Of a stretch of DNA of 64,000 nucleotides, positions 12,284 through 22,659 are shown piece after piece; position 1 is the first letter of the stretch, and the number at the start of each line of letters is the position of its first letter. The translations under genes were made by a program, and so were the position numbers. The DNA is from Promethearchaeota archaeon (GTDB lineage: Archaea; Asgardarchaeota; Lokiarchaeia; Sigyniarchaeales; SOKP01), in NCBI GenBank assembly GCA_019058445.1, contig JAHPZA010000010.1:480001-544000 (forward strand). Direction: 5' to 3'. The notes beneath the pieces were generated by a model, which made no database searches, was not told where the DNA came from, and worked only from the letters and a program-made list of their open reading frames with translations.

Positions 12284-14371
12284 TTGAATGGTGCTTTTAA
12301 TTTGAGATTAATTAATAACAATTTTAACGATATTGAAGAAATAAACGGATTTTCGAAAGAAGAATTAATTGATATTAAAAGAAAACTAACAAAATTAAAC
12401 TTAGATAAAGCGGATCAAACAGAAATTGAAGGATATCTCTCTGAGAAATTTTCAAGTGAAATAATTGAGTTTTATTCTAATTATCTGAATGAAATAAAAA
12501 CCTTTATTTTTGAAAATCTATTATCGACAACGGATTCTCAAAATAGAATAAATTTTAATCACTTTCCTCTAAAATCTGGAATTAAAAATGAGATTAAAAA
12601 AATATATAATAATTTATTGAATTTAAAGGTAAATGCTCAAAATACGAAGAGATTTTTAAAGAATAGTGCTTTCCTTGATGAGTTGTTAATAACGATCCAA
12701 GATATCATGAAAGAATATCAGGATTTAACTTCTCAATTAAATGTTCCAGAAAATAGAGTTACGGATATTTATGATAATTATGCCTATATCTGGATTGAAA
12801 TTAATAAATTAAAAAATCAATACTTTAAAATCAATAACTTGACAGAAGATTTAACAAATTGGGATGAGTTCCAAGGGTTTTATGAATGTATTAGAAATAA
12901 TATCATCGAATCTACTAAAAAAAAAGAGCGCAAGAAAAAAAATTTCATCATAACTACCCATTTTAATGATATTTATTCATATTTCAGCAAGTTAAAAGGA
13001 GAAAATCCCGATATCTATACAGATTTAATCGCTTTCTTATACAATATAAATCTAATTGAGGAGTTTAAAGAAAAAATAGAGGATCTTGATGAATATGTAA
13101 ATATTCTTGATAGAAAGGAAATTAAAAATAGAATTAAATCTTTAATGAATCCAATAATTAAAAAGTTAATTGAGGATAAAATAAAAGGAACTTTAAACGA
13201 AATTATTGAATTAGATAAAACTTCCAGATTAGGAGATCAGAAAAAAGACATAAACATAAAGAGGGTTTTAGAACAGAAAATTGGTACGTATTTACCTCAA
13301 ATAATTGATTATTATTTAAAAGGATTAGAAAATAAGTATCAAGCTGCTATTAGTGATTTAAAGGGATATGATGAATTTAAAAATGTGGCAAAATTTTATT
13401 CTGAAAAAATAGATATTCTCAATTCTCAAGTTGAGGAAATAGAAAATTATTTTGCTAATTACACTTTAATTTTAAAACCTTATGAGGATATCATAAATAA
13501 ACATAAGAAAACTCTTTCGAATATAACTTCTGAAATTGAAAGAAGGAAAAATGAATATTTATTTTACCTCAAAACTATAAGAAAGGAAAGATTGAGGGAT
13601 AATATAAGAACATTTATTTTTGAGAAAATAACAGAAGTTAATACTTTAATGAGTAAATATCAAGATGAAACTTCACTGATTGTAAGGGAAGAATTTCCTC
13701 AGCTAAAAAAAATGCAAAATATTCTTAGTGAATACAAAGTAAATATTCAAAAAATAAAAGATGAAGTATATCAAAAAATAGATTCTTTTAAAGAAAAAGA
13801 CATTGATATCTATCAAATTATTAAGCAATGGGAGGATAATTTTACACTTAAAAAACAGCAATTAAGTTTTCTCCTGAGTCTGTTAATAAATAAATTGTTT
13901 AAAAGTTTTAAGGATATGATTGAAGAAGAAAAATTGTTATATGAGCACATTACTGATATTACTAATCAAAACGAGAATTATGATAATCTTCCCTTAAATT
14001 TCGCTATATCAAATCTTTTAGTTGACAAATTAACTGAAGATGAATTAGATGAAAGAATTAACGAGATTCACTCAAAAATTGAAAACCTCAATAAAGAAAT
14101 AGAACTTTACAGAGCAGAACTCTCCAATTTAAAAAGAACTTTAGCAAATAAGGTAAAGATCAGAGAGGGAATAACTAGTGATGATATCCAATGCGGTGTC
14201 TGCCGAAAAAAGTTTGATTTTTCGAAAGATAAAATAATAAAATGTCCGTTTTGCGGTGCTGTATTTCATTATTTATGCGTTGCGTCATGGCTCAGTAAAC
14301 ACAACGCTTGCCCTTCATGTCAGAATACTTTTCTTGATCCAAATGCAGGTATTTATTCTGATCAAGAATAA
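12284..14371 (+). CDS. Coiled-coil protein with C-terminal RING finger (C4HC3), putative E3 ligase
   Basis: C-terminal CGVC-x13-CPFC-x4-H-x2-C-x3-W-x6-CPSC preceded by a long helical/coiled-coil region. Confidence 0.85.
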   Translation: MNGAFNLRLINNNFNDIEEINGFSKEELIDIKRKLTKLNLDKADQTEIEGYLSEKFSSEIIEFYSNYLNEIKTFIFENLLSTTDSQNRINFNHFPLKSGIKNEIKKIYNNLLNLKVNAQNTKRFLKNSAFLDELLITIQDIMKEYQDLTSQLNVPENRVTDIYDNYAYIWIEINKLKNQYFKINNLTEDLTNWDEFQGFYECIRNNIIESTKKKERKKKNFIITTHFNDIYSYFSKLKGENPDIYTDLIAFLYNINLIEEFKEKIEDLDEYVNILDRKEIKNRIKSLMNPIIKKLIEDKIKGTLNEIIELDKTSRLGDQKKDINIKRVLEQKIGTYLPQIIDYYLKGLENKYQAAISDLKGYDEFKNVAKFYSEKIDILNSQVEEIENYFANYTLILKPYEDIINKHKKTLSNITSEIERRKNEYLFYLKTIRKERLRDNIRTFIFEKITEVNTLMSKYQDETSLIVREEFPQLKKMQNILSEYKVNIQKIKDEVYQKIDSFKEKDIDIYQIIKQWEDNFTLKKQQLSFLLSLLINKLFKSFKDMIEEEKLLYEHITDITNQNENYDNLPLNFAISNLLVDKLTEDELDERINEIHSKIENLNKEIELYRAELSNLKRTLANKVKIREGITSDDIQCGVCRKKFDFSKDKIIKCPFCGAVFHYLCVASWLSKHNACPSCQNTFLDPNAGIYSDQE

Positions 14372-14397: not shown

Positions 14398-15588
14398 TCA
14401 ATATTTATATTTTGGAGGTGTTTTACTCTTAATATTATTATGAGGAGTTTTACTTTTAATATGATCTTTTTGTATTGCTTTAAATTTTTTTATCTCTGTG
14501 TCCAATCTCTTTTTTTCTTGCTGCAATTGCGCTTTCTCTTGATCTAATTTCTTTCTTTCGCGTTGTATATTCTTTTTTTCATTATTTATATTATTTTTTT
14601 CTTTTTCTATTCGATTTTTTTCACTCTCATTATAAGATTGAATTTTCTCTTTTTCATGTTGTAATCTTCTTAATTCATTTTTTAAACGTTCGATTTTATT
14701 CTCTAAATCTCGTGCCTTATTTTCTAATGAGCCTTTTCTTTTTTCTAATCCCGGGATTTTATTTCGTATATTTTTTACGAGAGCCTCCTCATTTTTTCTA
14801 TCTCTACCCAACGTCTGTTTTTCTCTGTTAATTTCATTTTTCAAGCTTTCTAACTCAATAGTTTTCTTTTTCATATCTTTTAATTTCTTATTGAGATCAT
14901 CGGTTTTTTTCCTAAGATTTTCTCTAGCATCTTTAAGTTTTTTCTTTTCGGCATTAATTAGAGCTTGGCTATTTATTACTTCTTTACGTATACTATCTAA
15001 TTCGTTTTTTAAACGGTTTCTATCATTTGAAAGGTGATCAATTTCAGTTGTTAAATTATCTACTTCTTTCTCTAGTTTAAATTTCTTGTTTTCCAGATCA
15101 TTTCCTCTTTTTTCTAACCCAGGGATTTTAGTTTTTATTTCTGTTAATTGCTTTCCTCTTTTTTGCTTTTCAAAATCCCAATCCTTTTTCTCATTATTAA
15201 TATCATCTCTTACCTTGTTTAACTCATCTCTTTGCTTATTAATTTCATTTATGATATTAGCATATTCCTGTTTCTTTCCTTGAATTTTTTTATTTCCATC
15301 ATTGATTATTTTTTTAATATTATCTAATTCGTTAGCTAATTGATCCTTTTCATAAATTAATTCCTTAATTTCATTTTCTCTTTCCTTTCTTTTTCTTTCT
15401 AAATCTTTAATCGCTTCTTGATATCCTTGTATTTTACTAACTATATTTTCCCATTCCCTACGTTCTTCTTCCAATTTTTGGCGCTCGAACTTAATTTTTT
15501 TGAGCAAAGTTTTATCAGCAGTTAATATTTCTTCTTTCTCAGGAGTTTTTTCTTGGATTTGATACTTAGGAGGTTTGTTATTCTTCAT
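14398..15588 (-). CDS. Long coiled-coil protein with internal duplication
   Basis: K/E-rich heptads; KIPGLEKR...LENK occurs twice; PPKY at both termini. Confidence 0.8.
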   Translation of the reverse strand: MKNNKPPKYQIQEKTPEKEEILTADKTLLKKIKFERQKLEEERREWENIVSKIQGYQEAIKDLERKRKERENEIKELIYEKDQLANELDNIKKIINDGNKKIQGKKQEYANIINEINKQRDELNKVRDDINNEKKDWDFEKQKRGKQLTEIKTKIPGLEKRGNDLENKKFKLEKEVDNLTTEIDHLSNDRNRLKNELDSIRKEVINSQALINAEKKKLKDARENLRKKTDDLNKKLKDMKKKTIELESLKNEINREKQTLGRDRKNEEALVKNIRNKIPGLEKRKGSLENKARDLENKIERLKNELRRLQHEKEKIQSYNESEKNRIEKEKNNINNEKKNIQRERKKLDQEKAQLQQEKKRLDTEIKKFKAIQKDHIKSKTPHNNIKSKTPPKYKY

Positions 15589-15797
15589 TTGTTTTTATTC
15601 CTTAAAGATATATTTATTAATATAAATTCTAATTTATTATATCAAGGTACTCGATATATTTATAAAAGATACAGTCAAAACTAAATAATTATAATAAATG
15701 ACTTTATTTATATAGTCGAGCTCTTATTATTTATATACTAGTATAAATATAAATAGGTATTTTATAGCTAAAATAAAGAAAAAAAAGGTTGATTATT

Positions 15798-16139
15798 ATG
15801 GGTTTTGATGATGAATTTGATGAGGATTTAGGAGAACCTGAGGAAAAGACCCCTATGAAGTCTAAAACTCCATCGACTCCCCCAGCAGGGGGAAAGAAGA
15901 TGAATCTCTACTTTACATCTACAATTGGACCTGGTGAGAAGCGACAGAAATTATTAGTTGATGACGGTAATACCGTCGGTGCTGTTAAACAGACAATTGG
16001 CAATATTTTTGGATTAGATCCAGCAGATTTTCATTTATCTTCGGGAGGAGTTACAATGGATGATAGCTCTCCTTTAAGCTCATATAATGTAAATGATGGC
16101 GATGAAGTACTTTTAATACCAGCAAGTACTGCTGGTTAG
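15798..16139 (+). CDS. Ubiquitin-like protein with acidic/Pro-rich N-terminal extension, C-terminus -STAG
   Basis: Beta-grasp pattern (TVGAVKQTIG..FG.....HL...G..MDD...LSSYNVNDGDEVLLI) ending PASTAG-stop; first gene of the E1-E2-JAMM cluster. ATG 15798 preferred to TTG 15789. Confidence 0.9.
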   Translation: MGFDDEFDEDLGEPEEKTPMKSKTPSTPPAGGKKMNLYFTSTIGPGEKRQKLLVDDGNTVGAVKQTIGNIFGLDPADFHLSSGGVTMDDSSPLSSYNVNDGDEVLLIPASTAG

Positions 16140-16256: not shown

Positions 16257-17489
16257 GTGGAAGATTTGGAAGAGGATTCTAATTTTTTTAGTAAAGAATT
16301 AACACCAGACGAGAGAGATCTGTATGATCGTCAGTTTAGATTGGAAGGATGGGATCAAAAACTAATTAAAAATTCACGAGTATTGATAGCGGGGGTAGGA
16401 GGATTAGGTTGTGAAATTGCTAAGAATTTGGCTATGTTGGGAGTGGGTCATCTTGACTTAGTAGATTTAGATATAATAGAACATTCGAATTTGAATCGAC
16501 AAATCCTCTTTACTGAGGCAAAAATGGGTGAGGCAAAAGCTGTAGTTGCCGCGAGAAAATTAACACAAATTAATCCAAACATTACAATTAAAGGTTATCA
16601 CAGTTCATTAGAAAGGCTCGATCCTGCGATTTATAAAGCAGCTGATGTTATTATCGGAGGTTTAGATTCGATGAATGCGAGACTTAATTTAAATGCTCAG
16701 TGTGTACGATTTAAAAAACCGCTTATCGATGGAGGTGTTGCGGGGTATAATGGACATATCTATACAGTTTACCCTTACGAAAACGCCTGTTATGAATGTG
16801 ATCCGCTTCCAGTTGCAGATATGGATGAAATGGCCGCATGCACTGTAGTGGGTGTCCCTAGAAAACGGGTTCACTGTATTTTTAAGGCAAATATGCTTTT
16901 CAAGGATGAAAATGATAGAGATCCTGATCCAAAAAATATAGAAGATGTAAATTTAATTCAAAATGAAGCAAACAAATTTGCTCAGAAACATAATTTTTTA
17001 CCGCTATTTTCAAAAGCAGATATTATTAAAATCATAGATAGACATGATCCTGGGATAATTACGATAAATTCAATTATATCTGCACTTCAATCGCATGAAA
17101 CCATCAAGGTTTTGCATTGGTTGAAAGGAAATAACGCGTTGGGAGAGCCTATCAAGTCCTATATTATTTTTAATGGAATGACCATGAAATTTTTCCCTAT
17201 TGAAAAGAAAAGAAATTTACAATGTCTCCAATGTGGTGACGAGGTACGGAGGGTAGTAATTGAAATTAATCGCAATACCAGTTGTGAGAAAATTGTAAAT
17301 AAGTTAGAAAAGATGGGATTTAATAAAAATCCGGAAATGGAGCCAACTTTAACAATAATGGACTTCAATAATATAAATATAATAGATACTGATCTTACGC
17401 CTATTGAAAATGATTTAAGAGATTTAGAATTGATAACAGCCGTAGGTTTTGATGGGGGAGAAATTTTTATAACTCTAAAAATCGTATAA
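16257..17489 (+). CDS. Ubiquitin-like activating enzyme E1 (UBA2/UBA3-like)
   Basis: YDRQ, GVGGLG, DLDIIEHSNLNRQ, CYEC and CLQC Zn sites, catalytic ACTVVGVPR...HC, PGIITIN, C-terminal ~80-aa UFD-like domain. Confidence 0.93.
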   Translation: MEDLEEDSNFFSKELTPDERDLYDRQFRLEGWDQKLIKNSRVLIAGVGGLGCEIAKNLAMLGVGHLDLVDLDIIEHSNLNRQILFTEAKMGEAKAVVAARKLTQINPNITIKGYHSSLERLDPAIYKAADVIIGGLDSMNARLNLNAQCVRFKKPLIDGGVAGYNGHIYTVYPYENACYECDPLPVADMDEMAACTVVGVPRKRVHCIFKANMLFKDENDRDPDPKNIEDVNLIQNEANKFAQKHNFLPLFSKADIIKIIDRHDPGIITINSIISALQSHETIKVLHWLKGNNALGEPIKSYIIFNGMTMKFFPIEKKRNLQCLQCGDEVRRVVIEINRNTSCEKIVNKLEKMGFNKNPEMEPTLTIMDFNNINIIDTDLTPIENDLRDLELITAVGFDGGEIFITLKIV

Positions 17490-17591: not shown

Positions 17592-18119
17592 ATGAGTTTA
17601 AGAAGTAGTCGAGTTTCTCAGGATTTTGCTTCGCTTAAAAAGTTACTTAAGGATGGAACCATCGCTCAACTAAAACCTTTTAATCCAAAACAGAAAAGTA
17701 TTGATCATTTAGCTGTCCTGCTTAAAGGTCCTAAGGGGACCGCTTATCAAGGAGGAGTATTTAAACTGGAAATCAAATATCCCCCTACGTATCCCAGACA
17801 TCCACCATTCGTTCGCTTACATACTCCTATTTGGCATCCTAATTTTTGGCCAAAACCTTCTGAGTATCCTGGTCAGCGAAATATTTGTCTAGCGCTCGTA
17901 GATCCGAGTTTAGTAGGGAAAAAAGGAGGTTGGAGCCCATCAAAAACAATTGTCACTGTAATACAAGCAATTACAGCAATGTTTAATACGCGAGGTTTAT
18001 TCATTAATCCTACTGATGTATTTAACAAAAAAGCAGCTCTCGAAATGATGAATGATCGCAAAAATTTTGAGAAAAAGGTAAAGCATTTAGTTAAGAAGTA
18101 TGCTAATCAAAAATGGTGA
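17592..18119 (+). CDS. Ubiquitin-conjugating enzyme E2 (UBC)
   Basis: GPKGTAYQGGVF, YP..PP.V...TPIWHPN, catalytic ICL, WSP. Confidence 0.95.
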   Translation: MSLRSSRVSQDFASLKKLLKDGTIAQLKPFNPKQKSIDHLAVLLKGPKGTAYQGGVFKLEIKYPPTYPRHPPFVRLHTPIWHPNFWPKPSEYPGQRNICLALVDPSLVGKKGGWSPSKTIVTVIQAITAMFNTRGLFINPTDVFNKKAALEMMNDRKNFEKKVKHLVKKYANQKW

Positions 18120-18940
18120 ATAGAAAAATGGAAAATGAAAAATCTGATGAAGATGCCATTAAAGAGGCCATAAAAAAGAGAATTAAAAATAAAATTAAGA
18201 AAGAACTATTGGAAGAAATCTATAATGAATTAAAGTTGGAGGAAGATGAATTAGCCGATGAGATTTCTTCATCACTTAGTAAAAATACAAAGAAAATTCC
18301 TACAGAATTACCCCTTTCCACAGAGATAATAAATGATATTAAAACTGAAGAAGTTGCGCCAAAAGATTTAGAAGATGATAAAACAGTAACTATATCAGTG
18401 AAGGCTATTCTCAAAATTGCCAGCCATGCACTGAAATATGCAAATCCAAATATTTCAAAAGATAAATGGGTTGAAGTCATTGGACTTTTGGCAGGTAAGC
18501 AGTATAATTACGGGCCTAAACTCCATATTGAAGATGCTTACCCTATGGGGCACGGCACTGCTGTTTATGCGGAAATTAAAGATTATAAAAATTTTGTAAG
18601 AGCGTTCAATGATATTAAGAAAAAGAAATTATTTATCTGTGGATGGTATCACTCTCATCCGTCATACGGAACATGGATGAGTGATGAAGATATTGGGACT
18701 CAAGCACGATATCAGAAGTTATGGGATAAAGCAATCGCACTTGTGGTTGATCCTTATCAAATTGATGGGACTTCATTAGGTTTTGATATTTTCAGAGCTA
18801 ATTTAAACACGAAAAAGTGGTTTTCTATACCATTTAGCGTCGAGGGTTCGCTTGATGTAAGATTATTACCTGAAATTTTAAATTTTATGAATCCTATAAT
18901 CGAGGGAAAGGCAGCATATCTCGAATATGATGAAGATTGA
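18113..18940 (+). CDS. JAMM/MPN+ metalloprotease (CSN5/Rpn11-like)
   Basis: EVIGLL.G, GWYHSHP.YG.WMS..D..TQ, ALVVDP; ~90-aa charged N-terminal extension. Confidence 0.94.
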   Translation: MVNRKMENEKSDEDAIKEAIKKRIKNKIKKELLEEIYNELKLEEDELADEISSSLSKNTKKIPTELPLSTEIINDIKTEEVAPKDLEDDKTVTISVKAILKIASHALKYANPNISKDKWVEVIGLLAGKQYNYGPKLHIEDAYPMGHGTAVYAEIKDYKNFVRAFNDIKKKKLFICGWYHSHPSYGTWMSDEDIGTQARYQKLWDKAIALVVDPYQIDGTSLGFDIFRANLNTKKWFSIPFSVEGSLDVRLLPEILNFMNPIIEGKAAYLEYDED

Positions 18941-19084: not shown

Positions 19085-20155
19085 TTGGTTGGATGTTGGA
19101 TTCTCTTTACAATTAAATTTTTTGAAAAAAGAAAAGAATATAATGAATATAATTCACAAAAAAATACATCATTCTTTCTCTTAGGTCCTTTAAGTGTGGG
19201 CCTATTTTATAACTTATGGGGTTATTTTACAGGATTATGGGGTGAAAATCTTTTCGAAAATACATTACCATTTTTATATATAAGCCTCTGGACTCTTATA
19301 TTTGCTTTTCCATACTTAATATACGGTTTATATACAATTCGAGCATGTTATACAAAATTTCATGTAGTATATCTCATAAAAACTAGATCTCTAAGTGCCC
19401 GCAAATTCGGAACATTTTATACGCTTTTACTTCTATTTGGAATTTTATTTTATATTGTATTTTTCAATATTATTCTGAATTATTTTTATATCATTGTAGA
19501 GCAAGTTTATTTCTATTTTGATATAATGCTCGTGGTAATATTTTTAACCTTAATTTATATATTCATAAGACACGGAATCTTTGGTTCAGCACGCTCTATG
19601 CCTGAGATTTCTCAAGATTATATAAACCGCCGAAGACAGCGCTTAAGAACAATGACCACTACTCCAGTTAGGGCTGCTCCAAGTAGACCTAAAACTACAA
19701 GAACCACATCACGACCAGCTCCAAGTAGACCTAAAACTACAAGAACCACATCACGACCAGCTTCAAATAGACCTAAAACTACAAAGACCGTTTCACGACC
19801 AGCTCCAAGTAAGCCAAAAACTACAAGAACAACAGCTCAAAAACCAAAAGTCGCTGCAAGTGCTGTCTTTGAGAAATATAAACCAAAAGCAGGAATTCTT
19901 TCATTAGAGGACTTTAAGTGTATATTTTGCTTTCAACTTCCTAAACTTCCTGCTGATACTCATCGTGGAATTGTTTTATGTCCAAATTGTAAACACCCAG
20001 CTCATGCGGATGAATTTAAAGAATGGACTCATGATTCTCCTCTCTGTTCTCGGTGTGATGCCCCAATTCCACCAAGTTTTAGGAGAAATCCCGTGATTAT
20101 CTCTGTCAAACAGTATGTTGATGTAATTAACGAGTATAAAAGAAGAAAGACATAG
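19085..20155 (+). CDS. Polytopic membrane protein with Ser/Thr/Arg/Pro repeat linker and C-terminal RING-like finger
   Basis: Several TM helices, (APSRPKTTRTTSRP)x4, then CIFC-x16-CPNC-x4-H-x2-E-x3-W-x6-CSRC. The frame is open upstream to 18959. Confidence 0.8.
   Translation: MVGCWILFTIKFFEKRKEYNEYNSQKNTSFFLLGPLSVGLFYNLWGYFTGLWGENLFENTLPFLYISLWTLIFAFPYLIYGLYTIRACYTKFHVVYLIKTRSLSARKFGTFYTLLLLFGILFYIVFFNIILNYFYIIVEQVYFYFDIMLVVIFLTLIYIFIRHGIFGSARSMPEISQDYINRRRQRLRTMTTTPVRAAPSRPKTTRTTSRPAPSRPKTTRTTSRPASNRPKTTKTVSRPAPSKPKTTRTTAQKPKVAASAVFEKYKPKAGILSLEDFKCIFCFQLPKLPADTHRGIVLCPNCKHPAHADEFKEWTHDSPLCSRCDAPIPPSFRRNPVIISVKQYVDVINEYKRRKT
19676..19834 (+). repeat. 42-bp intragenic tandem repeat, ~3.8 copies
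   Basis: Units start at 19676, 19718, 19760 and 19802 (GCTCCAAGTAGACCTAAAACTACAAGAACCACATCACGACCA); the first two are identical. Confidence 0.95.
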
Positions 20156-20185: not shown

Positions 20186-20935
20186 TCATTTAAGTCTTAA
20201 TTTATTTAGATTTTTACGGGCTTTCGAATTATTTGGGTCAATTCTTAAGGCTTTTTTATAACAATTGATTGCTTCTTCTAAAAAATTTAATTTTTCCAGT
20301 GCATATCCTTTATTATTCCAAGCCATGGAATTCTCTGGTTCTATTTTTATAGTATTTTCAAAGCATTTCACGGTTTGTTCATATTGACTTAAATCTGCAT
20401 GTAATAGTCCTTTTTCAAATAGAGCATGTGAATTGTCAGGATTAATTTTTAAAGCTTCATTGTAAAAAAAAATCATCGTTTTCTGCCAGTCAGAATCTTC
20501 ATTTGTGCAATCCCACATCAGAACTTCAGCTGGATGTTTATCTTTCCACCATTCAACATAATGCTTACAAGAACAAAATAATTTGATTTCCTTAGCATCT
20601 TTTATCTCTATACCATTTTCAAAGTCAGTATCACAAATAAAGCAAGTTCCATCTGTACCTACTAGAGGCATGATATTATTATGCCAAGGTAACCGATAAT
20701 CCCCTTCAGAATAAATTCCATAAATGTACATAGGTCCTTGAGCGATTCTACACCTTGTGTACCAATTGGCGCAATAAGTATATCCAGAATTTATAATATG
20801 TACGTTTCTTATGGGGCAATAATTTTCAATCCAGGGTTCTTTACGTTCATCTTTATCTAATTTTCGTTTAAAAATGCAGGTTGCACAGCAATCTGAACCA
20901 CCATTTGGCATTGAATTAACCTTCTTGTACTGCAA
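20186..20935 (-). CDS. Cys-rich N-terminal domain plus C-terminal TPR repeats
   Basis: MPNGGSDCCATC start with several Cys pairs; TPR consensus AWNNKG.AL..L...EEAI.CY.KAL.IDP. Confidence 0.82.
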   Translation of the reverse strand: MQYKKVNSMPNGGSDCCATCIFKRKLDKDERKEPWIENYCPIRNVHIINSGYTYCANWYTRCRIAQGPMYIYGIYSEGDYRLPWHNNIMPLVGTDGTCFICDTDFENGIEIKDAKEIKLFCSCKHYVEWWKDKHPAEVLMWDCTNEDSDWQKTMIFFYNEALKINPDNSHALFEKGLLHADLSQYEQTVKCFENTIKIEPENSMAWNNKGYALEKLNFLEEAINCYKKALRIDPNNSKARKNLNKLRLK

Positions 20936-21768: not shown

Positions 21769-22659
21769 ATGTCCGAAGAATCTCTTGATAATGATGATAA
21801 TTCCAAGTCGGAATTCGTATCGAGACTATACAATTGTCCGAAGTGCAGATTGATGCATACAGTAAAGCTCCCTAAAGATATCGCCCAAAATAAACCTGTT
21901 TTTCCTTTTCCATACGTATTTTTACATTCTTCTGAGGAAGGACTTGATGATATCCTTACTGTTCTTTATATTGATGTAGAACTTCATATACGTGCTGTTG
22001 AAGTTATGGAAGTTGACGAAACCAATATTTTTTCTGAAGATCTTACTAAACAAATTACTGAAAAGTTAATGGATAAGATTGTGAGCTTAGAAGAAGAAAA
22101 TTTACAGTTAAAAGACCTAATTCGCAAAATGGAGTTAGTTAAAGTAAGTGGATTAGAGGGAAAGAATCCAAGAGTTATGAGCATTCCGAAATTGGAATAT
22201 GAATCTGAGATAAAGGAAAAACCAATCACTTTGGAGCCTCAAATTCCAAAACTAAAGGAGATAAATGAAAAAAAGCCATTATTTGATTTACAGGAAATAC
22301 CCATGCCTGAGATTGAGTCTAAAGAACCCATGCCTGAGATTGAGTCTAAAGAACCCATACCCGAGATTAGATCTAAACAACCCATCCTAGAGTCTGAAGA
22401 CTTTTTCGATATAATTAAAGTGTATATTACATCTACGGTTGGACCAGGAGAAAAAAAACAGGATTTACGGGTAAAATTAAGTAATAAAGTCATTGATATT
22501 AAAGATACAATCGGAAAGATCTTTGGTTTAACACCCTCAAATTTCCATCTTTCCTCGGGAGGAATTACATTTGATGAACAGCTGCTCCTAAAGGATTATT
22601 ATATTGAAGAAGGAGACGAAATTCTTATTATTCCTTCAAGCACAGCAGGATTTTTTTAA
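21769..22659 (+). CDS. Zn-finger + coiled coil + repeat linker + C-terminal Ubl (ends -STAG-FF)
   Basis: N-terminal CPKC...H..PFPYVFLH; the C-terminal ~80 aa closely matches the Ubl at 15798 (TSTxGPGEK, IFGL.P..FHLSSGG, GDE.L.IP.STAG). Confidence 0.88.
   Translation: MSEESLDNDDNSKSEFVSRLYNCPKCRLMHTVKLPKDIAQNKPVFPFPYVFLHSSEEGLDDILTVLYIDVELHIRAVEVMEVDETNIFSEDLTKQITEKLMDKIVSLEEENLQLKDLIRKMELVKVSGLEGKNPRVMSIPKLEYESEIKEKPITLEPQIPKLKEINEKKPLFDLQEIPMPEIESKEPMPEIESKEPIPEIRSKQPILESEDFFDIIKVYITSTVGPGEKKQDLRVKLSNKVIDIKDTIGKIFGLTPSNFHLSSGGITFDEQLLLKDYYIEEGDEILIIPSSTAGFF
22300..22398 (+). repeat. 27-bp intragenic tandem repeat (PMPEIESKE)
   Basis: CCCATGCCTGAGATTGAGTCTAAAGAA identical at 22300 and 22327; degenerate copies at 22354 and 22381. 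Confidence 0.92.

What the first reader, a model, noticed from the sequence alone, without database searches (positions are those of the whole stretch)
21769..22659. Multidomain pro-modifier: Zn-finger/coiled-coil protein ending in a paralogous Ubl capped by two residues (-STAG-FF)
Seen: the last ~80 aa clearly match the operon Ubl (TSTVGPGEKKQ vs TSTIGPGEKRQ; IFGLTPSNFHLSSGG vs IFGLDPADFHLSSGG; GDEILIIPSSTAG vs GDEVLLIPASTAG), but the Gly is masked by Phe-Phe. Established: pro-UFM1 carries a two-residue cap, and JAMM proteases mature archaeal Ubl precursors. Inference: JAMM removal of FF could let a whole ~33-kDa cargo protein be conjugated to targets. Uncleaved, it could be a decoy or adaptor for E1, JAMM or the proteasome. 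The FF codons lie in a T-run (GGA TTT TTT TAA), so the cap may also be evolutionarily labile.
Basis: partly seen in the sequence, partly recalled or inferred. Interest (0 to 1): 0.8.

Follow-up and report, generated by a model that had tools for sequence, protein, structure and literature searches.

The report
Asgard ubiquitin-like tag carrying a cargo domain
An Asgard archaeon encodes, beside its ubiquitin-type operon, a 296-residue protein with a zinc-binding domain, a long helix and a ubiquitin-like domain whose conserved end (-STAG) is followed by two throw-away residues, so it is probably a ubiquitin-like tag that attaches a whole extra domain to its targets.

Summary
ORF 21769..22659 (+) is real. 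Its last 79 residues before the FF are 56% identical (E 3e-30) to the operon Ubl at 15789..16139, and it ends GGA TTT TTT TAA.

It belongs to a conserved family with 92 clusters in metagenomes. In the 301 reference genomes sampled, the N-domain occurs in one order only. The architecture is:
- a CCHH beta domain with no known fold match;
- a helix of about 37 residues;
- a disordered linker with Phi-x-S-K-x-P motifs;
- a ubiquitin-fold domain (Z 14.2).

The tail IPSSTAG is nearly invariant. What follows the Gly varies from 0 to 19 residues, and 24 of 85 proteins end exactly at Gly. The free Ubl family shows the same pattern. Orthologues lie 0-9 kb from Ubl-E1-E2-JAMM operons in four of the five further contig sets examined.

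On a tree, the fused Ubl domains form their own clade (support 99/96) together with Roadblock-fused forms. A stand-alone N-domain paralogue is paired with a small GTPase gene.

Best reading (0.55): an N-terminally extended pro-modifier, trimmed by a JAMM protease and conjugated through Gly294. Cleavage and conjugation are untested. The main rival is a non-covalent adaptor or decoy (0.28). Bacterial Bil Ubls with coiled-coil N-extensions are the nearest precedent, so this is a new variant of a known kind. First readers of this scan also noted a Gly-to-Glu relative in another genome.

The parts
21769..22659 (+). Whole gene: 296-aa Zn-beta / helix / linker / Ubl protein, ending -STAG-FF plus stop
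   Evidence: 92 homologous clusters, with N-termini starting alike.
21811..22014 (+). N-terminal beta domain (residues 15-82) with invariant C23, C26, H30, H53, a putative CCHH zinc site
   Evidence: AF2 gives five strands at pLDDT about 90. Invariant columns. No Pfam hit.
22036..22146 (+). Long helix (residues 90-126), heptad-like, with invariant E110 and N111: a possible coiled coil
   Evidence: The only structural matches are coiled coils, Z<6.
22147..22401 (+). Disordered acidic/Pro linker (residues 127-211) with three Phi-x-S-K-x-P motifs. Includes a 27-bp x3.2 tandem repeat at 22299-22385
   Evidence: pLDDT<50. TRF. Motif counts.
22402..22650 (+). Ubiquitin-fold domain (residues 212-294) ending I-P-S-S-T-A-G294
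   Evidence: pLDDT>90. Z 14.2, rmsd 1.7, 77 aligned to the ISG15 C-terminal domain, and Z 13.2 to ubiquitin chains. Pfam ubiquitin E 6.8e-5. 56% identical to the operon Ubl.
22651..22659 (+). Two-residue cap (Phe-Phe) and the TAA stop. The T7 run at 22651-22657 may double as an archaeal oligo-T terminator signal (inference)
   Evidence: Cap variability.
15789..16139 (+). Free operon Ubl, ending -STAG directly at the stop: paralogue of the fused Ubl
16257..17489 (+). E1-like activating enzyme (ThiF domain)
   Evidence: Pfam PF00899, E 1.3e-60.
17592..18119 (+). E2 (UQ_con)
   Evidence: Pfam PF00179, E 1e-24. HPN...C is present in the translation.
18113..18940 (+). JAMM/MPN+ metalloprotease with intact E...HxH-x7-S-xx-D motif: candidate cap-removing enzyme
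   Evidence: Pfam PF01398, E 1.2e-13. Motif read from the translation.
19085..20155 (+). Membrane protein with a C-terminal RING-like domain, last gene of the operon
   Evidence: weak zf-RING_16 hit. A paralogue follows the second free Ubl.
12284..14371 (+). Soluble coiled-coil RING protein upstream of the operon
   Evidence: Pfam zf-RING_2, E 9.7e-8.

Best explanation
The gene encodes an N-terminally extended ubiquitin-like pro-modifier. The C-terminal beta-grasp domain belongs to a dedicated 'fusion-type' paralogue of the operon's single-glycine (-STAG) Ubl.

Proposed steps:
- The two residues after Gly294 (FF) are a disposable cap, removed by a JAMM protease. The one in the adjacent operon is the obvious candidate.
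- The exposed Gly294 is adenylated and thioesterified by an E1. This could be the operon E1 or the second E1/E2 pair of the genome.
- Gly294 is passed to an E2 and ligated to target lysines with RING help.
- Each conjugate then carries, on a flexible linker of about 85 residues, a zinc-binding beta domain plus a long helix.

That N-terminal module also exists as a stand-alone protein encoded next to a small GTPase. In sister proteins it is fused to, or replaced by, a Roadblock/LC7 domain. It is therefore probably a protein-protein interaction handle of the small-GTPase network.

Shown here: architecture, paralogy, tail conservation, cap variability and synteny. Inferred: cleavage, charging, conjugation, zinc binding, dimerisation and the GTPase link.
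For: 1. Tail conservation. I288 and P289 are invariant, and S290, S291, A293 and G294 are at least 90% conserved in 44 sequences down to 40% identity. 77 of 85 tails end in Gly with a matching motif, 62 of them IPSSTAG.
2. After the Gly, conservation stops. Cap length is 0 (24 proteins), 1 (3), 2 (33), 3 (9), 4 (5), and up to 19, with 44 different cap sequences. 74 of 85 caps are 4 residues or shorter. About 34% would be expected from random stop spacing at 30% GC (my calculation), so caps are kept short.
3. The free operon Ubl family behaves the same way. A second free Ubl in this genome ends -STAGYE.
4. Relatives that lack the Gly have lost the whole motif: IPALK, IPARYNLK, VPAQN.... So STAG is maintained as a unit where it is kept.
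5. Synteny. Orthologues lie 0-9 kb from Ubl-E1-E2(-JAMM) operons in four of the five further contig sets examined. The fifth contig ends before any operon. In one genome two tandem copies follow the membrane RING gene on the same strand.
6. The fold is ubiquitin-like: Z 14.2, rmsd 1.7, 77 aligned.
7. The JAMM motif, the E2 HPN...C and the E1 ThiF domain are intact.
8. A relative (P0214) is a three-unit poly-Ubl with -STAG at each junction, which implies endoproteolysis after -AG in this Ubl family.
9. Precedents. The Caldiarchaeum pro-ubiquitin must be cut by its Rpn11/JAMM before E1 can use it (PMC5654768). An Asgard pro-ubiquitin carries a 4-residue cap (10.1101/2023.07.25.550441). Bacterial Bil Ubls are pre-processed by a DUB, and some have N-terminal coiled-coil or disordered extensions (PMC10557695).
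10. From established knowledge: N-terminal fusions to ubiquitin, such as tags or GFP, remain conjugatable.
Against: There is no biochemical or proteomic evidence for cleavage, charging or conjugation. The fused Ubl domains form a separate clade on a branch of 0.39 substitutions per site, so they may have left the E1/E2 pathway. One cluster has Glu at the Gly position (IPSRVAE; also noted in another genome by e1-5519212). A sister family with the same N-module has a degenerate tail. So the protein can evidently function without conjugation. The genome holds at least two further E1/E2 sets, so the cognate enzymes are uncertain. In this genome the gene is separated from the operon by two genes on the opposite strand. 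A conserved tail could also serve non-covalent docking to E1 or JAMM.
Confidence: 0.55

Rival explanations
1. A non-conjugated Ubl-domain protein acting as adaptor, shuttle or decoy. The C-terminal Ubl docks non-covalently on E1, E2, JAMM, proteasome or Cdc48-type partners, and the N-module binds something else. The cap keeps it permanently uncharged, so it regulates or competes with the free Ubl.
For: 72% of family members are capped, against 27% of free Ubls. One cluster has Gly replaced by Glu, and sister families keep the N-module plus Ubl with a degenerate tail. The fused Ubl clade is separate from the free Ubls. Uncleaved pro-ubiquitin is refractory to E1 in Caldiarchaeum (PMC5654768), so a capped protein would be inert unless it is processed.
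Against: A purely non-covalent domain has no evident need to sit at the extreme C-terminus, to keep an invariant Gly, or to tolerate only short and unconstrained residues after it. 24 of 85 members end exactly at the Gly. Eukaryotic integral Ubl domains generally lack the terminal Gly (established knowledge).
Confidence: 0.28
2. The Ubl acts in cis as a delivery or degradation signal for the N-terminal module, like a ubiquitin-fusion degron. Alternatively, the protein is a precursor cut upstream of the Ubl to release a free modifier.
For: A proteasome beta-subunit gene and RING genes lie in the same neighbourhood. The linker is long and disordered. Poly-Ubl relatives show that units can be released.
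Against: There is no -STAG or other conserved cleavage motif upstream of the Ubl in this family. A cis degron would not need a conserved terminal Gly. The N-module is under strong conservation: 61% mean column identity.
Confidence: 0.1
3. An artefact: a homopolymer error or a mis-joined ORF created the FF cap or the fusion.
For: The cap lies in a T7 run. A 27-bp repeat in the linker breaks short-read contigs.
Against: Contigs from three runs in two studies reproduce the T-run without indels. 92 homologous clusters share the same architecture.
Confidence: 0.02

Closest known systems
Caldiarchaeum subterraneum pro-ubiquitin / Rpn11-JAMM / E1 / E2 / small RING operon (PMC5654768, PMC6043591), and the Helarchaeia pro-ubiquitin system (bioRxiv 10.1101/2023.07.25.550441)
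   Same: An archaeal eukaryote-type operon. The modifier is encoded with extra residues after the reactive Gly, which a JAMM protease removes before E1 activation.
   Different: Those modifiers are small and end in Gly-Gly. Here the tail is -STAG with a single Gly. The modifier domain sits behind about 210 residues comprising a folded zinc-binding domain, a long helix and a linker. Nothing has been tested biochemically.
Bacterial BilA-type Ubls of BilABCD operons (PMC10557695)
   Same: The Ubl is pre-processed by an operon JAMM-type DUB. Some Ubls carry extended N-terminal regions predicted to dimerise through coiled coils or to be disordered. Multi-beta-grasp forms exist.
   Different: This is a different lineage. 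The E2 here matches eukaryote-type UQ_con (PF00179), the E1 lacks the Bil N-domain, and RING E3s are present. The context is not an obvious defence island. The N-module is a distinct CCHH beta domain.
UFM1 and ATG12 (eukaryotic single-Gly modifiers)
   Same: UFM1 has a single reactive Gly masked by a two-residue cap. ATG12 has a Ubl at the C-terminus behind a long N-terminal extension and ends in a single Gly.
   Different: There is no specific sequence relation. The ATG12 extension is unstructured and ATG12 needs no trimming. UFM1 has no N-terminal domain and is processed by Cys proteases. These comparisons rest on my own knowledge and were not tested here.
Integral Ubl-domain proteins (Rad23, Dsk2, parkin and the like)
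   Same: A ubiquitin-fold domain joined to other modules in one polypeptide.
   Different: In those proteins the Ubl is usually N-terminal or internal and lacks a conserved terminal Gly. Here it is strictly C-terminal with a conserved Gly and a variable cap.

Membership tests
Ubiquitin-fold (beta-grasp) domain, Pfam PF00240 | beta-grasp fold superposable on ubiquitin | tested here: met
   AF2 pLDDT>90 for residues 212-294. Z 14.2, rmsd 1.7, 77 aligned to the ISG15 C-terminal domain. Z 13.2, rmsd 1.4, 75 aligned to donor ubiquitin in 8q7r.
Ubiquitin-fold (beta-grasp) domain, Pfam PF00240 | Score above the Pfam gathering threshold | tested here: inconclusive
   23.0 bits against a cut-off of 25.4, E 6.8e-5. 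The paralogue P0002 scores 29.6, and many orthologues carry a precomputed PF00240 hit.
Conjugatable (type I) ubiquitin-like modifier | Conserved Gly at, or exposable at, the C-terminal end of the tail | tested here: met
   G294 is conserved in at least 90% of 44 aligned sequences. 24 of 85 homologues end exactly at it.
Conjugatable (type I) ubiquitin-like modifier | Cognate E1 and E2 encoded with it | tested here: met
   E1, E2 and JAMM lie 2.8-5.5 kb upstream in the window. The linkage is conserved in four of the five further contig sets examined.
Conjugatable (type I) ubiquitin-like modifier | E1 thioester and isopeptide conjugates demonstrated | not testable with these tools
   Needs biochemistry or proteomics.
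Ubl precursors with a C-terminal propeptide (pro-Ub, pro-UFM1, CsUb) | Residues beyond the reactive Gly that are not conserved among orthologues | tested here: met
   FF here. Elsewhere 0-19 residues and 44 different cap sequences.
Ubl precursors with a C-terminal propeptide (pro-Ub, pro-UFM1, CsUb) | A processing protease with an intact active site is available | tested here: met
   The JAMM at 18113..18940 has E...HSH-x7-S-xx-D in its translation. Five further JAB-domain matches elsewhere in the genome.
Ubl precursors with a C-terminal propeptide (pro-Ub, pro-UFM1, CsUb) | Cleavage after the Gly shown | not testable with these tools
   Needs an intact-mass assay.
Integral Ubl-domain proteins (Rad23/Dsk2 type) | Ubl without a reactive C-terminal Gly, placed N-terminally or internally | tested here: not met
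   The Ubl is at the extreme C-terminus with a conserved Gly. Sister families P0087 and P0089 do meet this feature.
Bacterial BilABCD / Bub Ubl systems | Bil-type E1 (with the PF14459-like N-domain) and Bil-type E2 in the operon | tested here: not met
   The E2 matches eukaryote-type UQ_con, E 1e-24. The E1 shows only ThiF. RING proteins are present.
Zinc ribbon / zinc finger | Four conserved metal ligands | tested here: met
   C23, C26, H30 and H53 are invariant in 44 sequences and kept in the stand-alone paralogues.
Zinc ribbon / zinc finger | Match to a described zinc-finger family or fold | tested here: inconclusive
   No Pfam hit on residues 1-128. PDB profile search E>0.08. Foldseek E>0.3. 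VIA matched only the helix.
Roadblock/LC7 (MglB-like) domain | Sequence-profile similarity of the N-domain to Roadblock | tested here: inconclusive
   hhalign of A2 against the Roadblock part of P0091 gives probability 1%. Roadblock is fused to, or replaces, the module in relatives.

The most novel reading that the evidence does not exclude
Lokiarchaeia-type Asgard archaea keep a dedicated Ubl paralogue whose job is to be a conjugatable adaptor. Through its C-terminal Gly it covalently plants interchangeable small-GTPase-network modules on target proteins: the CCHH beta/helix module, or Roadblock/LC7. Its linker Phi-x-S-K-x-P motifs may serve as acceptor or docking sites that allow chains or networks. 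That would be a direct pre-eukaryotic link between ubiquitin-type tagging and GTPase-based trafficking or signalling.
Probability: 0.2. Interest if true: 0.85.

Novelty: new variant of a known kind. Interest (0 to 1): 0.62.

Why it matters
Ubiquitin-type modifiers are normally small tags. If a 33-kDa protein with its own folded domain is conjugated through a C-terminal Ubl, then tagging in the closest archaeal relatives of eukaryotes can also act as covalent recruitment of a functional module.

The family is large, unannotated ('hypothetical protein') and tightly linked to the Asgard E1/E2/RING/JAMM operon. It comes in natural variants with no cap, with caps, with Gly replaced by Glu, and with the tail lost. 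Together these form a ready-made experimental series.

The family also defines a previously undescribed CCHH beta domain associated with small GTPase genes, and a conserved linear motif upstream of every Ubl unit of this type. All pieces can be tested in vitro with proteins encoded in this one window.

Tried and rejected
- Complex prediction, homodimer of residues 1-128 with alignment A2: no verdict (score 0.28, mark 0.42). Dimerisation through the helix therefore remains an untested inference.
- Fold of the N-domain: VIA-align wide returned only coiled-coil matches to the helix (Z<6). Foldseek PDB gave nothing with E<0.3. The PDB sequence profile gave only E 0.087 to a Rab11-FIP3 coiled coil, which is not significant. 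No known fold was assigned. This does not show that the fold is new, because the beta domain could not be searched without the helix.
- hhalign of the N-domain against a Roadblock segment: no similarity.
- RNA evidence: no RNA holder was listed among the sequencing runs, so expression was not assessed.
- Small GTPase genes near the fused gene: none in the window. The GTPase link rests only on the stand-alone paralogue and on domain fusions.
- Genome-wide enrichment of the Phi-x-SK-x-P motif: none (25 found against about 27 in shuffles). Only its clustering in the Ub-locus proteins is notable.
- Slippage in the T-run as the special source of the cap: rejected as unnecessary. Relatives change caps by ordinary substitutions and stop-codon shifts.
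The library is incomplete.

Full report
**What is there**

The window is about 30% GC. It is part of contig C10 of a 4.6-Mb, 93%-complete genome. Its closest protein relatives are labelled Promethearchaeota / Lokiarchaeota in public records.

ORF 21769..22659 (+) encodes 296 residues. BLASTP against the free Ubl of the adjacent operon (15789..16139) aligns residues 216-294 to 38-116. The match has 44/79 identities, no gap and E 3e-30.

The gene ends GGA TTT TTT TAA. Logan contigs from three runs in two studies cover the seven-T run without an indel, so the cap is not an assembly error.

**Context**

Upstream on the same strand lie, in order:
- a proteasome beta subunit;
- a coiled-coil RING protein (PF13639, E 9.7e-8);
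- the free Ubl;
- an E1 (ThiF, E 1.3e-60);
- an E2 (UQ_con, E 1e-24);
- a JAMM protease (JAB, E 1.2e-13, with an intact E...HxH-x7-S-xx-D motif);
- a membrane protein with a RING-like end.

A TPR gene and a LysE gene on the minus strand separate this operon from the gene under study.

**Anatomy**

An AlphaFold2 model built from a 44-sequence alignment shows four parts.
- A five-stranded beta domain, residues 16-81, pLDDT about 90.
- One long helix, residues 90-126.
- A disordered stretch, residues 127-210, pLDDT below 50.
- A beta-grasp domain, residues 212-294, pLDDT above 90.

The beta-grasp domain matches the ISG15 C-terminal domain at Z 14.2, rmsd 1.7, 77 aligned. It matches ubiquitin chains at Z about 13.

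In the N-terminal part, C23, C26, H30 and H53 are four of only fourteen invariant columns. I read this as a CCHH zinc site, which is an inference. No Pfam family matches this part. PDB searches gave no convincing match. The helix dominated those searches, so I make no claim that the fold is new.

The linker carries a 27-bp x3.2 tandem repeat. This repeat gives three copies of a Phi-x-S-K-x-P motif.

**The comparative test**

A search of the 5.8-billion-protein collection found 92 clusters. Identities to the query run from 88% down to about 31%, and almost all are annotated 'hypothetical'.

In the 44-sequence alignment I288 and P289 are invariant. S290, S291, A293 and G294 are at least 90% conserved. 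Immediately after the Gly all conservation ends.

Among the 85 proteins with a recognisable tail:

| Residues after the Gly | Proteins |
|---|---|
| 0 | 24 |
| 1 | 3 |
| 2 | 33 |
| 3 | 9 |
| 4 | 5 |
| 5-19 | 11 |

There are 44 different cap sequences, rich in F, L, I, Y, N and K. That composition is what AT-rich, T-rich 3' sequence encodes.

At the DNA level this genome has GGA TTT TTT TAA. A congener has GGT TAT TTC TTT TAA. Another genome sampled in the same genus has GGA TAA. So the cap drifts by ordinary changes of the stop position.

Caps are much shorter than random stop spacing predicts. 87% are 4 residues or fewer, against about 34% expected at 30% GC by my calculation. The sequences are not independent, so this is indicative only.

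This is the signature of Ubl precursors: a conserved reactive tail followed by a short disposable extension.

**The free Ubl behaves the same way**

This genome's second free Ubl, on contig C6, ends -STAGYE and is followed by a RING-like gene.

A metagenomic relative, P0214, is a three-unit poly-Ubl. Each unit reads acidic tail, I-K-S-K-T-P, beta-grasp, -STAG, and then runs directly into the next unit. That architecture implies endoproteolysis after -AG in this Ubl family.

Published work supplies the mechanism by analogy.
- Caldiarchaeum pro-ubiquitin is refractory to E1 until its Rpn11/JAMM removes nine residues (PMC5654768).
- A Helarchaeia pro-ubiquitin has a four-residue cap (10.1101/2023.07.25.550441).
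- Bacterial BilC pre-processes BilA. Some BilA proteins have N-terminal extensions predicted to dimerise through coiled coils (PMC10557695).

**Linkage**

In four of the five further contig sets examined, orthologues lie close to Ubl-E1-E2(-JAMM) clusters.
- About 6-9 kb away in L005/L006.
- About 2.3 kb downstream in L007.
- Between the proteasome/RING genes and the Ubl-E1-E2-JAMM genes in L011.
- Directly after the operon's membrane RING-like gene on the same strand in L009/L019, as two tandem copies ending -STAGAFYFG and -STAGIHSITSR.

In the fifth contig (L010) only a RING-sized protein, LysE and an aldehyde dehydrogenase gene are near before the contig ends.

**A separate Ubl paralogue with swappable heads**

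I built a maximum-likelihood tree of 100 Ubl domains over 80 columns, so it is only partly resolved. It places all 45 Zn-module-fused Ubls on one side of a branch with 99/96 support and length 0.39. Two Roadblock-fused forms (P0216, P0091) and one helical-N form (P0092) sit with them. All 41 free Ubls are on the other side.

An exhaustive HMMER search with the Ubl domain further shows -STAG-type Ubls at the extreme C-terminus of other proteins:
- HerA-like ATPases;
- CDC48_N+VWA proteins;
- others of unknown type.

Related Ubl domains with degenerate, non-Gly tails occur in two settings. One is membrane proteins, including one in this genome next to a Rab-like GTPase. The other is Roadblock + Zn-module + Ubl proteins such as P0089.

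**What the N-module may do**

A profile of residues 1-128 found the module in 36 of 301 sampled genomes of the phylum. All 36 belong to two families of the window's own order. Most matches are stand-alone ORFs of 114-138 residues.

The fused form was seen in the window's genus and in one other genus of that sample.

This genome's stand-alone copy is 38% identical (E 5.5e-16). It sits directly downstream of a small GTPase gene. Its orthologues are adjacent to the orthologous GTPase, within about 100 bp on the same strand, in all nine loci of that subfamily examined. These are syntenic loci and not independent events.

Together with the Roadblock fusions, this suggests a module that belongs to the small-GTPase network. 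That is guilt by association and was not tested. No GTPase gene lies near the fused gene itself.

**Weighing the readings**

The pro-modifier reading explains the following:
- the strictly C-terminal position of the Ubl;
- the invariant Gly within an invariant tail;
- the short unconstrained caps, and the 24 uncapped orthologues;
- the parallel behaviour of the free Ubl;
- the operon linkage.

Several points stand against it.
- Nothing has been shown biochemically.
- The fused Ubl is a diverged paralogue.
- One cluster has Glu at the Gly position. An earlier first-reader note of this scan on another genome, e1-5519212, describes the same state.
- Sister families have lost the tail altogether, so the protein has value without conjugation.
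- The genome has at least two further E1/E2 sets. One E1/E2 pair has no Ubl gene in the 10 kb inspected around it.

I put the pro-modifier at 0.55, a non-covalent adaptor or decoy at 0.28, a cis degron or upstream-cleaved precursor at 0.10, and an artefact at 0.02.

**Comparison and novelty**

The operon type, the C-terminal caps and JAMM maturation are known in archaea. N-terminally extended, possibly dimeric Ubls are known from bacterial Bil systems.

The new points are these:
- a large, unannotated Asgard family in which a dedicated Ubl paralogue keeps a conjugation-type tail behind a folded CCHH beta domain and a helix;
- N-modules exchanged with Roadblock;
- a conserved Phi-x-S-K-x-P motif upstream of every Ubl unit, present in 72 of 82 fused proteins and (as S-K-x-P) in 116 of 120 free ones.

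I class it as a new variant of a known kind, with interest 0.62.

Noticed in passing
window 22299-22385, 15850-15870, and 14398-14460 (minus-strand gene 14398..15588): A linear motif Phi-x-S-K-x-P (consensus I-K-S-K-T-P) lies within 60 residues upstream of the Ubl domain in 72 of 82 fused proteins; as S-K-x-P it is in 116 of 120 free ones. It also sits in each unit of a poly-Ubl and twice at the C-terminus of the divergently encoded coiled-coil protein. Genome-wide it is not enriched (25 against about 27 expected). The only two ORFs with two or more copies are in this locus. It may be an acceptor or docking site.
   Followed up: partly
G000 C6:374192-374554 (L002 1384..1746) and L002 1825..2493: A second free Ubl (120 aa) ends -STAGYE, a two-residue cap. 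It is followed by a RING-like protein paralogous to the C-terminus of the operon's membrane RING-like protein.
   Followed up: partly
G000 C10:658786-659714 (L013 1453..2384, minus strand): A stand-alone paralogue (121 aa) of the CCHH beta/helix module lies directly downstream of a Rab/Ras-like small GTPase gene. The pairing holds in all 9 loci of this subfamily examined (this one and eight orthologous loci in other genomes).
   Followed up: partly
L004 720..2313 (G000 C6, minus strand): A membrane-anchored protein (275 aa) has a C-terminal Ubl-like domain that lacks the Gly (ends IPSRIPQK). It lies next to a Rab-like GTPase gene. Similar TM-Ubl proteins with basic tails are common among the representatives (P0246-P0256).
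   Followed up: no
proteins P0214, P0215, P0221, P0225, P0230, P0216, P0091 (metagenomic relatives): -STAG-type Ubls occur in several other architectures: three- and two-unit poly-Ubls, and C-terminal domains of a HerA-like ATPase, of CDC48_N+VWA proteins and of Roadblock/LC7 proteins.
   Followed up: partly
G000 C10:384298-387082 (L042 3799..6583): A second eukaryote-type E1 (528 aa) and E2 (171 aa) pair has no Ubl gene in the 10 kb inspected around it. It may serve one of the orphan Ubls, including the fused one. A third JAMM-E1-E2-like cluster lies at C9:220-222 kb.
   Followed up: partly
window 22299-22385: The 27-bp x3.2 repeat encoding P-E-I-E-S-K-E-P units breaks short-read contigs and shows raised word depth. 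Unit number differs among the aligned orthologues: most shown have one unit, and P0037 has several.
   Followed up: partly
window 20186..20935 (minus strand); L009 12102-12833; L010 12167-13321: A TPR protein gene recurs near the fused Ubl gene in three of the loci examined. In the window it has a Cys-rich N-terminal half.
   Followed up: no
run X1, contig record 5, over window 22591-22640: The sample that may be the source also holds a related organism. Its copy of the gene ends ...AGTAGCTGGATAA, which reads -VAG plus stop with no cap, as in L007/L041.
   Followed up: no
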